A DNA stretch of 64,000 bases, from the sequence record DRR723986_562. The stretch is one strand, 5' to 3'. The position numbers and the translations under genes were made by a program. This document shows, one piece after another, positions 45,247-49,148 of the stretch; within the stretch, counting starts at the first letter, position 1, and the number at the start of each line of letters is the position of its first letter. Under the pieces are notes generated by a model. It was not told the origin of the DNA and searched no databases. It saw only the letters and a program-made list of their open reading frames with translations.

Positions 45247-46329
45247 CTATTTTACTTTTTCAATTTTAAAAGAATCCTTTTGTTTATCAGAGTTAATAAT
45301 TAACAGATAAGATCCTGATTCATAAGGTTTAAGATTAATGTTAAATTCTCTTAATCCTTCAGATAAATTTCCAGAATAAATCGATTTAATTTTTTTACCG
45401 TCAACAGCATATAAATAAATGTCATACATTCCTGAATGATTGACCTGTAATTGGAATTTAGCGTAATCAGAAGTGGGATTTGGGAATAGAACTCCTTCAA
45501 AATCTGGATTCACTGCTATTGTTGCTAAAGATTCAGTATTTGTTTCAGTTTGCTTAACTGCATCAGTTGTGTCTTCTAGAAAGTTGAAATATTCTGGATC
45601 TATCATCAATCCACCATCTACCATTTCATCTGTGAATAGAGTGGTGTCGGGAATTTTAGGTTCAACATAATGAACGGCGGTTCTTCCCATGACAATTTCT
45701 TCTTTCTTTTCAAGAGTATCGGTTTCAATTGGTTCAACATGATGGATGATAGGTTGACCTAAAAAGAGTTCTTCTTTTTCGTCAGGAATAAACATGATAT
45801 CACCTTTGGTGAATTCGCGCTCATCTAAATTGGTTTCTGTTTCACATGTTTTTGTTATTTCATCTTCAGATGATACCTTAATTTTTCCTTTTTTATAATT
45901 GTTGTGTTCCTCAACTGGGGCTTCTTCTTCTATGTGCGATTTATTGGGTAGCTCCGGCTCCTTGATTTGTTCTATCGCTTCCTCATAATATAATTCTCCC
46001 ACAACATGTTGATTAGATTCACAACCCGTAAATAAGGTCATTCCGAAAACGATTAAACAAGCATATAAGAATTTTGATTGTAAAGATCGTGCAGATTGAT
46101 TTTGCCAAGCAAAAAAGTCATCATTTAACTGAACCAATTGTGTTTTTTTGAATCTACCGCACATATGCTTACCAGCATTTTCGTGCAAAATTGATTTTAT
46201 CTCGTTTGGAGATTTATTACTGAAATCAATAACATCTATTTGACAGGATCCGCAAAAAGCACCTTTTTCAGTCGGTGTAAAGTCGGCCCAATTTTCATGA
46301 CAAGGTTCTGGAATACTAATCTTACTCAT
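45247..46329 (-). CDS. Cys4-domain / internal lipobox / T9SS type-A CTD protein, paralog 1
   Basis: ISIPEPCHENW...FCGSC...CGRF; hydrophobic stretch ending LFTGC (C103); CTD LFPNPT...GSYLL...FKIEKVK. Confidence 0.8.
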   Translation of the reverse strand: MSKISIPEPCHENWADFTPTEKGAFCGSCQIDVIDFSNKSPNEIKSILHENAGKHMCGRFKKTQLVQLNDDFFAWQNQSARSLQSKFLYACLIVFGMTLFTGCESNQHVVGELYYEEAIEQIKEPELPNKSHIEEEAPVEEHNNYKKGKIKVSSEDEITKTCETETNLDEREFTKGDIMFIPDEKEELFLGQPIIHHVEPIETDTLEKKEEIVMGRTAVHYVEPKIPDTTLFTDEMVDGGLMIDPEYFNFLEDTTDAVKQTETNTESLATIAVNPDFEGVLFPNPTSDYAKFQLQVNHSGMYDIYLYAVDGKKIKSIYSGNLSEGLREFNINLKPYESGSYLLIINSDKQKDSFKIEKVK

Positions 46330-46387
46330 AGCTTAAATTTTGGTACATCTATGGTGCGGTACATTCTTAGGTTAATTTGGTTCAAAT

Positions 46388-46414
46388 AAAAAGAGGGACC
46401 TCCCCAGGTCCCTC
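46388..46414 (-). terminator. Rho-independent terminator between the paralogs
   Basis: Minus strand GAGGGACCT-GGGG-AGGTCCCTC followed by TTTTT. Confidence 0.85.
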
Positions 46415-46443
46415 CATCCATGAAAAAACTACTTACGTAGCGC

Positions 46444-47355
46444 TTAGTTTACTTTTGAAATTTTTAAAGTCTCATTTTGGCCTTGAGAAATGATTTTTAC
46501 AATATATAAACCTGAATTTTTATCTGAAAGGTCACATTCGAATTGATTTCTCCCTTCAGGTAAAATACCTGAATGAATGGTTTGTACCAATTGACCATTC
46601 ATGTTATAGAGTACAATGTCAAATTGTCCTTCTTGTTCTATTTCTAGTGCAACTGTTGTTAAGCCTTGTGTCGGGTTTGGATAAGCAGTTGCTTCGAAAA
46701 TTCTTGAATCAATATGAATAGGATCTGCAAGTATGCTTGTCGTGTCTTCAGGTACAACCTCTTCAACATATTTAATATAATTTTCAGTGTAACCTATACC
46801 CCCTGCGACTTGTATTTCTCCTCTTGTTTCGTAAATCTGCTGAACATCATACTCTTCGTAAATCACACCTCCTAGTTCATAGTCCTTAATTTCACAAACA
46901 AATTCGGCAATCCCCGGTTCAACGATTTGCTCTTGAATGTAATCTAACAAATCAACTTGACTAATTTCAAGTTCGGTGTTGATGAATTTAGCCTTTGTAG
47001 GATTATCCTCAACCACTTCAATTTGATTGAGATCTTGGATGGCCTTTTCATTTTCACATGAGAATAGGCTTAATCCAAAGACCATGATACAAGCCAGGAT
47101 GAATTTACTCTGAAAAACTCTCGGTTGTTGATTTTTCCATTCTAAAAATCCCGCATTCAGTTCAATCAATTGTGATTTGTTGAAACGTCCACAAATGTGT
47201 TGATTTGCATTCTCTTTCACAATTTGATTGATCTGTTGATTGGATAAAGATCTAAAATCAAAAGTGTCAATGCTGCATTTATCACAAAATGCTCCTCTTT
47301 CAGTAGGAGTCATTTGGCTAAAATCTTCTTTACATGGGTCTGGAATGCTAATCAT
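46444..47355 (-). CDS. Cys4-domain / internal lipobox / T9SS type-A CTD protein, paralog 2
   Basis: ISIPDPCKEDF...FCDKC...CGRF; hydrophobic stretch ending LFSC; CTD AYPNPT...GLYIVKI...LKISKVN. Confidence 0.8.
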   Translation of the reverse strand: MISIPDPCKEDFSQMTPTERGAFCDKCSIDTFDFRSLSNQQINQIVKENANQHICGRFNKSQLIELNAGFLEWKNQQPRVFQSKFILACIMVFGLSLFSCENEKAIQDLNQIEVVEDNPTKAKFINTELEISQVDLLDYIQEQIVEPGIAEFVCEIKDYELGGVIYEEYDVQQIYETRGEIQVAGGIGYTENYIKYVEEVVPEDTTSILADPIHIDSRIFEATAYPNPTQGLTTVALEIEQEGQFDIVLYNMNGQLVQTIHSGILPEGRNQFECDLSDKNSGLYIVKIISQGQNETLKISKVN

Positions 47356-47363
47356 AATTCATT

Positions 47364-47400
47364 GTTTTGATTGAATACAAGCGTCATTGCATTAGGTTCA
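47364..47400 (-). promoter_or_regulatory. Putative ECF sigma promoter TGAACC-N17-TATTCAATCAAAAC
   Basis: Exact box, spacer and ATG-distance match to 2660-2696. Confidence 0.7.
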
Positions 47401-47589: not shown

Positions 47590-48171
47590 ATGAAAATATT
47601 CCTCTTTATTCTAGGAATCTCTGTGCTTTTTGTTTCGTGCCGTAAAAAAGAGTTGAGAGATGTTGAAACGACTGAAACCGCTGGAGCACAGCATTGTTCT
47701 AATTTTGTTAAAGATGCAGACGAGCTTGGAGTTGATTGCGGTGGAGCGGATTGTGATCCTTGTCAACAAGACACCCTGCCATGCAACATACCTGATAACA
47801 AGGTTAGATGTTTGGAGGCAAGTACAGTTACTACAGAATCATTAATTAACCAATCGCATGGGTATTTAGGAAATAACTACGTTTTTAGGGCATATACTGG
47901 TGACGGTGACTCATTAATTCTCACTTTTGACGACATTCCGGACGTAACACAAACTTATTCAGGGGTTGCGAACTCTTTTGATATTTCTTCAACTGAAGTC
48001 TTGGTTGAATATTTTCAACCTTATCCATTGAAAGATTGGATTGGAAGTGGAGCAGTCTATGTAAATTTTATTGACGGAGCTTATAAAATAGGTTCTTGTG
48101 ATTATGATTTTCATGAGTACGGTCAGCCTTCTTTTTCTATCGAACAATATTTTAGCATAACATTCTATTAG
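47590..48171 (+). CDS. Lipoprotein with a Cys-rich CxNxxxDxxExGVDCGGxxCxPC motif
   Basis: Lipobox FVSC followed by RKKE; CSNFVKDADELGVDCGGADCDPC. Confidence 0.75.
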   Translation: MKIFLFILGISVLFVSCRKKELRDVETTETAGAQHCSNFVKDADELGVDCGGADCDPCQQDTLPCNIPDNKVRCLEASTVTTESLINQSHGYLGNNYVFRAYTGDGDSLILTFDDIPDVTQTYSGVANSFDISSTEVLVEYFQPYPLKDWIGSGAVYVNFIDGAYKIGSCDYDFHEYGQPSFSIEQYFSITFY

Positions 48172-48182
48172 CCCAAATCAAC

Positions 48183-49148
48183 ATGAAAAAAATTATTATT
48201 ATCTGCGGAATTCTTTCTTTTACATCCGCTTTTTGTCAAGATGATGAAGTTGTTGAGTATTCTTTAATATATGATGAACCGGACAAGTCATGGGTTGGAG
48301 GAGGGATATCATATGATATGTCTTTAAACGAATATAATATGACAATTGCCGCTCTTGGGGTTGAAGGAAGGTTTTTTCATGAATTGTTTGCCATAGATGC
48401 TGGGTTTAAATTTCATCTGTTGGAAAACGCAGCTGATTTTGCCTATTTAAGTCCTTATGCAACTTCAATTTATGAGCCAGAAAAATCTAGAGATTTTAAT
48501 TTACTAGGAACGTATTACTTTAAACAGGATACCGAGAAAAAGAAAGCGACCGTTCGATTGAAAAAAGTTGGAAATACAATATATGTTGTAGAGGTACCCG
48601 CTAAAAGATCAGTTAAGTTCGGGGCCGAATTAGGATATGATGCTGGAGTGACTTATTACAATTTTCAAAATAATCAAATGACAGGGATTGATTCTCAGGG
48701 GAATGAGGTGTTGATTGAATCTGGTAATGGCTTGGGCAAATCAGTTGCGACATTTTATAAATACTCCATGATTCGGTTGGGAGCTAGTCGTACTCGCTCT
48801 ATGAACATGCAAATAACTACAGCTAAATACGGTGATAGAACTGTAGCCAGTTCGAGTCGTATCTATACTCAGATTTTTATCGGATTTGGCCAGTCTGTTG
48901 ATGATATTTATGTTCCTTTTGATGCTTTCATTAATCTTCAGGAAGAGCCTTATACGAGATATGATATTAATACCAATTTACCATTTAGAAAAATTGGCGG
49001 ATGTATTGGTTATCAAAATTACAGTTTAGGAAATTTTGGATTCGGTTATGGAGCTGAAATAGGAATGCTTCCGGCGCCCAAAAATAAACTGAGAACAAGT
49101 TTTTATCTCGATTTAACGCTTCGCTACCAAATTGGTAAAAAATTGTAA
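48183..49148 (+). CDS. Putative outer-membrane beta-barrel protein
   Basis: Signal peptide, amphipathic strands, C-terminal FYLDLTLRYQI. Confidence 0.6.
   Translation: MKKIIIICGILSFTSAFCQDDEVVEYSLIYDEPDKSWVGGGISYDMSLNEYNMTIAALGVEGRFFHELFAIDAGFKFHLLENAADFAYLSPYATSIYEPEKSRDFNLLGTYYFKQDTEKKKATVRLKKVGNTIYVVEVPAKRSVKFGAELGYDAGVTYYNFQNNQMTGIDSQGNEVLIESGNGLGKSVATFYKYSMIRLGASRTRSMNMQITTAKYGDRTVASSSRIYTQIFIGFGQSVDDIYVPFDAFINLQEEPYTRYDINTNLPFRKIGGCIGYQNYSLGNFGFGYGAEIGMLPAPKNKLRTSFYLDLTLRYQIGKKL

What the first reader, a model, noticed from the sequence alone, without database searches (positions are those of the whole stretch)
45247..47355. Tandem paralogs combining an N-terminal Cys4 domain, an internal lipoprotein signal and a T9SS CTD
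Seen: both proteins start with an ~85-aa hydrophilic domain with four aligned cysteines (PC-x15-CxxC-x27-CGRF; C10/26/29/57 and C8/24/27/55). Next comes QSKF plus a hydrophobic helix ending in a lipobox (LFTGC / LFSC) near residue 100, then an acidic linker and a type-A T9SS CTD. Established: T9SS cargo normally has an N-terminal signal peptide, and lipoprotein signals are usually about 20 aa. Inference: the Cys4 (possibly Zn-binding) domain stays cytoplasmic. After signal peptidase II cleavage it would remain on a membrane stub while the rest is exported, so it could report secretion or envelope status, for example as an anti-sigma-like or intramembrane-proteolysis-released signal. I know of no assigned function for this N-terminal domain.
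Basis: partly seen in the sequence, partly recalled or inferred. Interest (0 to 1): 0.8.

Follow-up and report, generated by a model that had tools for sequence, protein, structure and literature searches.

The report
Cys4 domain fused before signal peptide
Two neighbouring genes of a Crocinitomicaceae-like bacterium encode small acidic envelope proteins whose export signal is preceded by a conserved four-cysteine domain of unknown role, an arrangement shared by many Bacteroidota proteins that I did not find described.

Summary
ORFs 46444-47355(-) (B, 303 aa) and 45247-46329(-) (A, 360 aa) are paralogs. Each has an ~80-aa N-terminal Cys4 domain, a 15-residue hydrophobic stretch ending in LFSC/FTGC, an acidic disordered linker and a type-A T9SS CTD.

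The N-domain defines a large unnamed Bacteroidota family: 5661 cluster representatives at E<=1e-3. It has no Pfam or NCBIfam model and no PDB fold match. It lies at the N-terminus in all members examined.

The hydrophobic stretch is followed by a lipobox Cys in 131 of 140 close relatives. In 55 distant relatives it is followed by a lipobox (24) or an [ASG]|Q site typical of Bacteroidota signal peptidase I substrates (25). This argues that the stretch is a cleaved signal peptide, so the Cys4 domain is a cytoplasmic part of a giant signal peptide.

Exported parts vary (CarboxypepD_reg, TonB_C, CTD, or 0-50 residues), while the N-domain is the most conserved part. I therefore think it has a function of its own. 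An anti-sigma role lacks genomic support: no conserved sigma-factor neighbour. Cleavage, zinc binding and function remain untested.

The parts
47125..47355 (-). Protein B residues 1-77: N-terminal Cys4 domain (C8, C24, C27, C55), predicted cytoplasmic
   Evidence: ORF. AF2 model of residues 1-105: mean pLDDT 86, strands 21-24, 29-33 and 55-57, helices 39-48 and 60-74. Cys invariant in orthologs. 4 synonymous and 0 non-synonymous differing codons against the nearest strain over codons 1-100.
47056..47124 (-). Protein B residues 78-100: RVFQSK, then a 15-residue uncharged h-region ending in the lipobox LFS-C100 (proposed Lgt/LspA site)
   Evidence: F93, G94, L97 and F98 are invariant and C100 is >=90% conserved. 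Lipobox-like site in 73 of 73 orthologs.
46684..47055 (-). Protein B residues 101-224: acidic, mostly disordered linker; starts CENE (resembles a Bacteroidota lipoprotein export signal)
   Evidence: pI 4.05. pLDDT <50 for residues 97-178. 64 of 73 orthologs have >=2 D/E at +2..+6.
46444..46683 (-). Protein B residues 225-303 plus stop: type-A T9SS C-terminal sorting domain
   Evidence: PF18962 47.6 bits, TIGR04183 49 bits. Beta-sandwich with pLDDT >=91.
46392..46415 (-). Terminator-like hairpin between B and A (10 pairs, then a T-run)
46090..46329 (-). Protein A residues 1-80: N-terminal Cys4 domain (C10, C26, C29, C57)
   Evidence: 2 synonymous and 0 non-synonymous differing codons against the nearest strain over codons 1-103.
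46021..46089 (-). Protein A residues 81-103: SLQSK, then the h-region ending in FTG-C103 (proposed lipobox)
   Evidence: FTGC is the second most common lipobox form in relatives, 15 of 130.
45490..46020 (-). Protein A residues 104-280: acidic linker
   Evidence: 45 D+E against 15 K+R, pI 4.29
45247..45489 (-). Protein A residues 281-360 plus stop: type-A T9SS C-terminal sorting domain
   Evidence: PF18962 32.9 bits, TIGR04183 32.6 bits
47360..47392 (.). 33-bp stretch standing where the nearest strain has 700 bp encoding a third, CTD-less paralog directly upstream of B
   Evidence: blastn of the window against L006. ORF in L004. Loose ends at 47359/47393 in runs X1, X3 and X5.

Best explanation
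A and B are precursors of small acidic envelope proteins made with a giant, two-part signal peptide. Residues 1-~77 fold in the cytoplasm into a Cys4 (probably zinc-binding) domain. Residues ~78-100 (B) and ~81-103 (A) are an ordinary Sec signal: positive residues, a 15-residue hydrophobic core and a lipobox. Inferred steps follow. The hydrophobic core inserts N-in/C-out. Lgt lipidates Cys100/Cys103 and LspA cuts before it. The lipidated acidic linker plus type-A CTD goes on to the outer membrane and the T9SS. The ~11-kDa Cys4 domain stays behind on the cytoplasmic face, held by the spent signal-peptide helix. It would remain there until signal-peptide-degrading proteases (S2P/RseP-like, SppA-like) release or destroy it. 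The Cys4 domain is the best-conserved part of the family, while the exported part is variable and sometimes almost absent. I therefore think the domain has a function of its own on the cytoplasmic side that is coupled one-to-one to export and cleavage, rather than serving only as a targeting aid. It is not a classical operon-linked anti-sigma factor.
For: Shown: the architecture. The N-domain starts 7-10 residues after the initiator Met in the family, and its match starts at residue 1-25 in all 150 best library hits. It is under purifying selection: 6 synonymous and 0 non-synonymous differing codons in 203 N-domain codons against the nearest strain, compared with 18 non-synonymous in the remaining 460 codons. 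Neither gene has an in-frame ATG placed to give a short conventional signal.

Signal-peptide character: the uncharged stretch before the Cys has a median of 15-16 residues (range 13-24). A lipobox-like site follows it in 73 of 73 orthologs, 131 of 140 cluster representatives and 24 of 55 distant members. Of the 31 distant members without a lipobox, 25 have [ASG]Q there. The same motifs occur in 1.2% and 16.6% of 848 control windows of the same proteins. Q at +1 is the hallmark of Bacteroidetes signal peptidase I substrates, with a mean of 71% across species (PMC5837995, passages read). In the nearest genome, 12 of 15 complete conventional CTD proteins show it.

The nearest genome G001 encodes LspA, two M50/S2P loci and SprA.

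The N-domain is the conserved unit. The exported parts differ: Por_Secre_tail in 91 of 142 close members; CarboxypepD_reg in 26, TonB_C in 8, CTD in 6 and OmpA in 1 of 55 distant members. Complete short forms export only ~26-50 residues, and one ORF stops right at the cleavage-site motif. Precedent for SPII followed by S2P processing of lipoprotein signal peptides into active products: enterococcal pheromones (PMC10202637, passages read).
Against: No direct evidence of cleavage, lipidation or metal binding. A signal core 85-100 residues from the N-terminus lies outside what I know of documented LspA substrates. F93, G94, L97 and F98 are invariant within the hydrophobic stretch, which resembles a specific transmembrane helix more than a generic signal. 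TonB_C and OmpA domains in relatives would also suit uncleaved, inner-membrane-anchored envelope proteins. None of 15 conventional CTD proteins examined in G001 has a lipobox, so a lipidated T9SS cargo is unusual and its route is unclear. No partner or target of the Cys4 domain was found. The positions of the four Cys in the AF2 model could not be inspected because no coordinates are returned. The counts involve related sequences, so the binomial values overstate independence.
Confidence: 0.42

Rival explanations
1. The signal is cleaved as above, but the Cys4 domain only serves export of the attached cargo. It would be a targeting, holding or routing device, like the N-terminal extensions of some signal peptides (ESPR of autotransporters, YSIRK, or the ~90-residue KxYKxGKxW signal that routes GspB to the accessory Sec system; all recalled). 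It would have no role after cleavage.
For: The same evidence for cleavage applies. The domain is always directly fused to a signal core. The exported parts share a style: a long disordered linker plus a small beta-sandwich, TonB_C or OmpA domain. That could mean shared handling needs.
Against: Short complete members export only ~26-50 low-complexity residues, and one ORF ends at the cleavage motif. In those, little or no cargo is left to serve. The domain is more conserved than any cargo part. In G001, 142 of 144 CTD matches do without it, and conventional CTD proteins use short signals. No dedicated partner gene lies nearby.
Confidence: 0.27
2. The hydrophobic stretch is an uncleaved signal anchor. 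The proteins would be bitopic inner-membrane proteins with a cytoplasmic Cys4 domain and a periplasmic linker. The C-terminal domain (CTD, TonB_C, CarboxypepD_reg, OmpA) would reach the outer membrane or cell wall, acting as a trans-envelope tether or transducer in the manner of TonB or FecR-type anti-sigma factors.
For: Invariant residues inside the helix. TonB_C (8), OmpA (1) and SusC-NTE-like CarboxypepD_reg (26) domains among 55 distant members. Linkers long enough to span the periplasm.
Against: It does not explain why the residue after the helix is a lipobox Cys or an [ASG]|Q site in 49 of 55 distant members and 137 of 140 close members. An uncharged stretch of 15-16 residues is short for a stable anchor. 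A type-A CTD implies passage through the outer membrane, which an inner-membrane anchor would prevent. There is no adjacent sigma factor or ExbBD-like partner.
Confidence: 0.2
3. Mis-called start: translation begins just before the hydrophobic stretch, and the 'Cys4 domain' is untranslated leader.
For: In-frame TTG codons exist at codon 63 (B) and at codons 48 and 65 (A).
Against: The domain is conserved at protein level in thousands of cluster representatives. Against the nearest strain there are only synonymous differences. The initiator Met sits consistently 7-10 residues before the first Cys. There is no ATG just upstream of the h-region. Contigs from RNA libraries cover the N-domain codons of both genes, although DNA carry-over is not excluded.
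Confidence: 0.02

Closest known systems
T9SS type-A CTD cargo proteins (PF18962 / TIGR04183)
   Same: A and B have a C-terminal sorting domain above the family cut-offs at the extreme C-terminus. The nearest genome has SprA and 144 CTD matches.
   Different: Known cargo has a short N-terminal Sec signal (review PMC10202324, passages). In G001, 12 of 15 complete CTD proteins show a short signal ending in x|Q. Here the signal core lies at residues ~85-100 behind a folded domain and ends in a lipobox. The 'passenger' is only a disordered acidic linker.
Enterococcal sex-pheromone precursors: lipoprotein signal peptides cut by signal peptidase II and then by the S2P Eep/RseP
   Same: The part of a lipoprotein precursor removed by SPII is itself the functional product, and S2P acts on the spent signal peptide (PMC10202637, passages). 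LspA and M50 proteases are present in G001.
   Different: There the product is a 7-8-residue peptide that is exported (recalled). Here it would be an ~80-residue folded cytoplasmic domain. Processing by S2P is not shown.
Long, two-domain or stable signal peptides of eukaryotes and viruses (NtraC model; HERV-K Env signal peptide; MMTV Rem and arenavirus SSP, the last two recalled)
   Same: The concept matches: an N-terminal extension of the signal peptide has a function of its own after cleavage (PMC2447879 and PMC2649029, search listing and start of abstract only).
   Different: Different domain of life and no sequence or fold relation. The bacterial Cys4 domain is a separate, larger, cysteine-rich fold.
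Extended bacterial signal peptides (ESPR, YSIRK/GXXS, KxYKxGKxW)
   Same: A conserved N-terminal extension sits ahead of a normal h-region and cleavage site.
   Different: Those are 20-60-residue linear motifs (recalled). No Pfam match to any of them here. This extension is a folded Cys4 domain.
Regulated-intramembrane-proteolysis anti-sigma factors (RseA, FecR, zinc-binding ZAS/zf-HC2)
   Same: A cytoplasmic N-terminal domain, one membrane pass and an extracytoplasmic part, with possible release by S2P.
   Different: No HxxxCxxC motif and no zf-HC2 hit. No conserved adjacent sigma factor. 'Site-1' cleavage would be constitutive signal-peptidase cleavage.

Membership tests
T9SS type-A sorting-domain protein | C-terminal ~75-residue domain matching PF18962/TIGR04183 above the curated cut-off, at the very C-terminus | tested here: met
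   A: 32.9 and 32.6 bits. B: 47.6 and 49 bits. Cut-offs are 27 and 23.
T9SS type-A sorting-domain protein | N-terminal Sec signal peptide | tested here: inconclusive
   No signal at the N-terminus. A signal-like core with a lipobox lies at residues 85-100 (B) and 88-103 (A). No SignalP-type predictor was available.
T9SS type-A sorting-domain protein | The host has a T9SS | tested here: met
   SprA_N match, E 7.4e-159, in G001. This is the nearest genome held; the window's own assembly is not held.
T9SS type-A sorting-domain protein | T9SS-dependent secretion and CTD removal | not testable with these tools
   Needs experiments
Bacterial lipoprotein (SPII substrate) | Lipobox [LVI..][ASTG..][GAS]-C after a hydrophobic core that follows positive residues | tested here: met
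   B: K84, 15 uncharged residues, LFS-C100. A: K86, then FTG-C103. The site is conserved in 73 of 73 orthologs.
Bacterial lipoprotein (SPII substrate) | The signal lies at the N-terminus (Cys usually within the first ~35 residues; recalled) | tested here: not met
   Cys at 100 and 103
Bacterial lipoprotein (SPII substrate) | Acylation and LspA cleavage | not testable with these tools
   LspA is present in G001. The modification itself needs mass spectrometry or globomycin.
Bacteroidota surface lipoprotein with export signal (LES) | Acidic motif next to Cys+1: CS(D/E)2, K-(D/E)2 or Q-A-(D/E)2 (PMC6222051, passages) | tested here: inconclusive
   B has C-E-N-E-K and A has C-E-S-N-Q. 64 of 73 orthologs have >=2 D/E at +2..+6: 52% D/E there against 23% further on. 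This is similar but not the published motifs. Only 6 of 24 distant lipobox members reach that count.
Zinc-binding anti-sigma factor (ZAS, zf-HC2) | HxxxCxxC motif / PF13490 match | tested here: not met
   No such Pfam hit at E<=1. The motif is C-x15-CxxC-x27-C.
Zinc-binding anti-sigma factor (ZAS, zf-HC2) | Co-located ECF sigma-factor gene | tested here: not met
   The most widespread neighbour cluster occurs in 18 of 78 loci. Sigma70_r2/r4 occurs in 2 of 78 neighbours of 13 distant loci. None is next to A or B.
Zinc ribbon / known Zn-finger folds | Structural match to a solved Zn-binding fold | tested here: inconclusive
   Foldseek against PDB: best E 5.4. VIA-align wide: best Z 3.0. PDB profile search: best E 0.1, over 26 residues only.

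The most novel reading that the evidence does not exclude
The Cys4 domain is a signal-peptide-borne cytoplasmic effector. Signal peptidase (II or I) acts as a constitutive 'site-1' protease, and an S2P then frees the domain. The cell would receive one soluble Cys4 molecule per successfully exported and processed precursor. This would be an export- or envelope-status read-out, a class of signalling not described in bacteria and spread over thousands of Bacteroidota proteins. The exported acidic lipoprotein or CTD part would serve largely as the 'probe' of the Sec, Lgt/Lsp, Lol and T9SS routes.
Probability: 0.2. Interest if true: 0.85.

Novelty: new variant of a known kind. Interest (0 to 1): 0.7.

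Why it matters
Signal peptides are usually treated as short, disposable and poorly conserved. Here the opposite holds. A folded, cysteine-rich domain with no family assignment sits in front of an otherwise canonical Sec signal, and it is the best-conserved part of a family with thousands of cluster representatives in environmental Bacteroidota.

If cleavage is confirmed, these would be, to my knowledge, the first bacterial signal peptides that carry a folded metal-binding domain. Two questions would then become directly testable: what happens to signal peptides after cleavage in Bacteroidota, and whether export is reported back to the cytoplasm.

There is also a practical consequence. Signal-peptide predictors and annotation pipelines will probably misread these proteins, for example as membrane proteins, or simply as 'T9SS sorting domain-containing' as seen. 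The A and B subfamily additionally combines a lipobox with a T9SS CTD. None of 15 conventional CTD proteins checked in the nearest genome shows that pairing.

Tried and rejected
- Homodimer test of the N-domain (complex prediction, two copies of residues 1-88): no verdict, score 0.01. This is evidence neither way.
- Search for fused forms longer than 531 aa: none scored. This is weak evidence only.
- The search for related loci with the 150-row alignment failed for lack of a conserved stretch. It worked with a 31-row alignment.
- Foldseek against PDB, VIA-align wide and ESM Atlas returned no named or convincing relative. The Atlas gave only unnamed Bacteroidota clusters.
- PDB profile search: a 26-residue resemblance to HMGB1 box A (E 0.1). 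Rejected as chance: it covers no Cys ligand pair, and the AF2 model is not helical there.
- Pfam weak hits at E 0.02-0.05 (HNOBA, Golvesin_C, DUF7808, Glft2_N, FlgD_ig) are all below their cut-offs and were ignored.
- Anti-sigma idea: looked for sigma-factor neighbours and found none conserved.
- T9SS-specific targeting idea, including a link to the GldL cytoplasmic domain: dropped without a test. Only 6 of 55 distant members carry a CTD, and 142 of 144 CTD matches in G001 lack the domain.
- Count of Met residues between the fourth Cys and the h-region (35 of 75): not used, because my window overlapped the h-region itself.
- Paper searches for the arrangement or its motifs found nothing that describes it. 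One search failed on a too-short term and was not repeated.
- Parts of the stretch without cover in the RNA-library contigs say nothing.
Full report
**What is there.**
They are paralogs (BLASTP E 2e-53, 31% identity). A terminator-like hairpin at 46392-46415 separates them.

Cysteines lie at 8/24/27/55 in B and 10/26/29/57 in A, giving C-x15-CxxC-x27-CG. After QSKF comes an uncharged stretch that ends in LFS-C100 (B) or FTG-C103 (A). The linkers that follow are acidic, with pI 4.05 and 4.29. Both proteins end in a type-A T9SS sorting domain above the curated cut-offs of PF18962 and TIGR04183.

Identity between A and B is highest in the N-terminal part. It is 54 of 100 aligned residues there, 35 of 119 in the linker and 29 of 79 in the CTD.

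AF2 with a 150-row alignment folds residues 1-105 of B with mean pLDDT 86. The model has a small beta sheet (strands 21-24, 29-33, 55-57), helices 39-48 and 60-74, and a helix at 78-98. In the full-length model residues 97-178 are disordered (pLDDT <50) and the CTD is a confident beta-sandwich. The 'passenger' is therefore essentially a disordered acidic segment.

**The start codon is right.**
In family members the initiator Met lies 7-10 residues before the first Cys. Against the nearest strain (97-99.8% DNA identity), the N-domain plus hydrophobic stretch of A and B show 6 synonymous and 0 non-synonymous differing codons in 203 codons. The rest shows 33 synonymous and 18 non-synonymous in 460 codons.

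There is no in-frame ATG between codon 16 (B) or codon 57 (A) and the hydrophobic stretch. Only TTG codons occur there, at codon 63 in B and codon 65 in A. Contigs from two metatranscriptome libraries cover parts of both genes. One run covers the N-domain codons of A (46118-46310) and B (47129-47359). DNA carry-over cannot be excluded.

**The family.**
Full-length orthologs number 73 hits, about 300 aa each. Those that carry a name are called 'T9SS type A sorting domain-containing protein' or 'hypothetical protein'. They come from Crocinitomicaceae, Crocinitomix and Paracrocinitomix. All four Cys are invariant in a 71-row alignment. So are F93, G94, L97 and F98 inside the hydrophobic stretch.

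Residues 1-105 of B, searched against 1.84 billion cluster representatives, gave 5661 hits at E<=1e-3 and 687 at E<=1e-10. In all 150 listed hits the match starts at residue 1-25 of a protein of 106-405 aa.

The N-domain has no Pfam or NCBIfam model. It has no PDB sequence relative and no fold match: Foldseek best E 5.4, VIA-align best Z 3.0. ESM Atlas returned only unnamed Bacteroidota clusters.

In a sample of 401 Bacteroidota genomes, 48 carry the domain, with up to 9 matches per genome. One family scored 0 of 87. Tandem arrays of 2-4 same-strand copies occur in 19 of 79 loci.

**Is the hydrophobic stretch a cleaved signal?**
Four lines of evidence say yes.

1. It is short. The uncharged run before the Cys has a median of 15-16 residues. 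K/R precede it and D/E follow it, which predicts an N-in/C-out orientation.
2. A lipobox-like site follows it in 73 of 73 orthologs, 131 of 140 representatives and 24 of 55 distant members. The same pattern occurs in about 1% of control windows from the same proteins.
3. Where the Cys is absent, the site is mostly [ASG]|Q (SAQ, NAQ, TAQ, FGQ and similar). This holds for 25 of 31 distant and 6 of 9 close members, against 17% of control windows. Gln at +1 is the mark of Bacteroidetes signal peptidase I substrates, with a species mean of 71% (PMC5837995, passages). In the nearest genome, 12 of 15 complete conventional CTD proteins have a short N-terminal signal ending in x|Q. A family that alternates between the two canonical cleavage motifs at one position is hard to explain for a mere membrane anchor.
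4. A type-A CTD implies transit to the outer membrane.

The nearest genome has LspA, M50 proteases and SprA. The sequences counted are related, so these counts are not independent events. No experiment shows cleavage.

**What the N-domain is attached to.**
- Among 142 close members: Por_Secre_tail in 91 and TonB_C in 2.
- Among 55 distant members: CarboxypepD_reg in 26 (SusC-N-terminal-extension-like), TonB_C in 8, Por_Secre_tail in 6 and OmpA in 1.
- Seven of these 55 are under 200 aa. Their exported parts are low-complexity tails of about 34-100 residues, the shortest being 34 in a 124-aa member.
- Among four further loci fetched afterwards, a 135-aa open frame would export about 26 residues. 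An 87-aa ORF stops exactly at the '...FVQA' motif, though it sits among degenerate copies.
- The nearest genome has two more paralogs without a CTD (223 and 170 aa).

The constant, most conserved unit is therefore the Cys4 domain plus signal core. The exported part is interchangeable. Conversely, only 2 of 144 CTD matches in the nearest genome belong to this family. The domain is thus neither needed for T9SS export nor specific to it.

**Context.**
Neighbours of A and B are a CapD-like polysaccharide enzyme, a thioesterase, a MORN-repeat protein, two unassigned envelope proteins and a cytochrome c peroxidase. Across 78 loci, the most widespread neighbour cluster occurs in only 18. By my reading of their first 60 residues, none of the top 25 clusters is a sigma factor; this is not a family scan. 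A Pfam scan of 78 neighbours (three genes either side) in 13 distant loci found Sigma70_r2/r4 in 2. A classical anti-sigma role therefore lacks genomic support.

**Mechanism I commit to (inference).**
- The Cys4 domain folds in the cytoplasm.
- The signal core inserts through Sec.
- Lgt and LspA lipidate the Cys and cut before Cys100 (B) or Cys103 (A).
- The acidic lipoprotein with its CTD moves on to the outer membrane and T9SS. In the B subfamily, 64 of 73 have >=2 D/E at +2..+6. This resembles, but does not equal, the published lipoprotein export signals (PMC6222051, passages).
- The Cys4 domain is left tail-anchored on the cytoplasmic face until S2P- or SppA-type proteases act. The closest precedent is the enterococcal pheromone pathway, SPII then Eep/RseP (PMC10202637, passages).
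- Because the domain is the conserved unit, I favour a function of its own coupled to export (0.42) over a pure targeting aid (0.27) or an uncleaved anchor (0.20).

**Novelty.**
Long or functional signal peptides are known: ESPR, YSIRK and the GspB signal in bacteria (recalled), and two-domain or stable signal peptides in vertebrates and retroviruses (PMC2447879, PMC2649029; listings only). I found no description of a folded Cys4 domain ahead of a bacterial signal peptide, nor of this family (paper searches). The library lacks most subscription journals, and supplements were closed. I rate it a new variant of a known kind, resting on a new domain family.

Noticed in passing
window 47360-47392 vs L006 1546-2245: The nearest strain (G001/L006) has 700 bp here encoding a third, CTD-less paralog (about 223 aa). 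Its stop lies 3 nt before B's start. The window has 33 unrelated bases instead. Contigs of runs X1, X3 and X5 diverge from the window at exactly 47359/47393. Their loose end reads as the 3' end of that third gene, so the three-copy form is the one seen in those three runs.
   Followed up: partly
L003 1306-1818 (G001:C36): A fourth paralog of 170 aa: Cys4 domain, LFTGC, and a 65-residue acidic tail without a CTD. It lies directly downstream of a large protein with a T9SS type-B sorting domain (TIGR04131, E 5.2e-11).
   Followed up: partly
L038 (CP034120.1), L008/L065, L033, L042: Some records holding family members carry names outside Flavobacteriales: Glaciecola amylolytica, Arenicella sp., and MAGs labelled Chitinophaga pinensis and Chryseobacterium gleum. 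The L038 protein starts with the same 10 residues as that of a Fluviicola MAG. These labels may be mis-assignments rather than gene transfer.
   Followed up: no
window 47590-48171(+) and 48183-49148(+): Divergently transcribed pair without any Pfam or NCBIfam match. One is a Cys-rich predicted lipoprotein (signal ending LFVSC). The other is a 321-aa protein with an N-terminal signal.
   Followed up: no
G001 genome: 144 Por_Secre_tail matches at E<=1e-5 in a 3.6-Mb genome, a very large predicted T9SS secretome.
   Followed up: no
window 45670-45760 (protein A residues ~190-225): The linker of A contains two similar segments, HHVEPIETDTL and HYVEPKIPDTTL, which suggests an internal duplication.
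   Followed up: no
L165 (G212:C1:2418600-2421700): A cluster of degenerate N-domain copies with in-frame stops, next to an 87-aa ORF that ends at the signal-peptidase motif. This looks like gene decay within a tandem array.
   Followed up: partly
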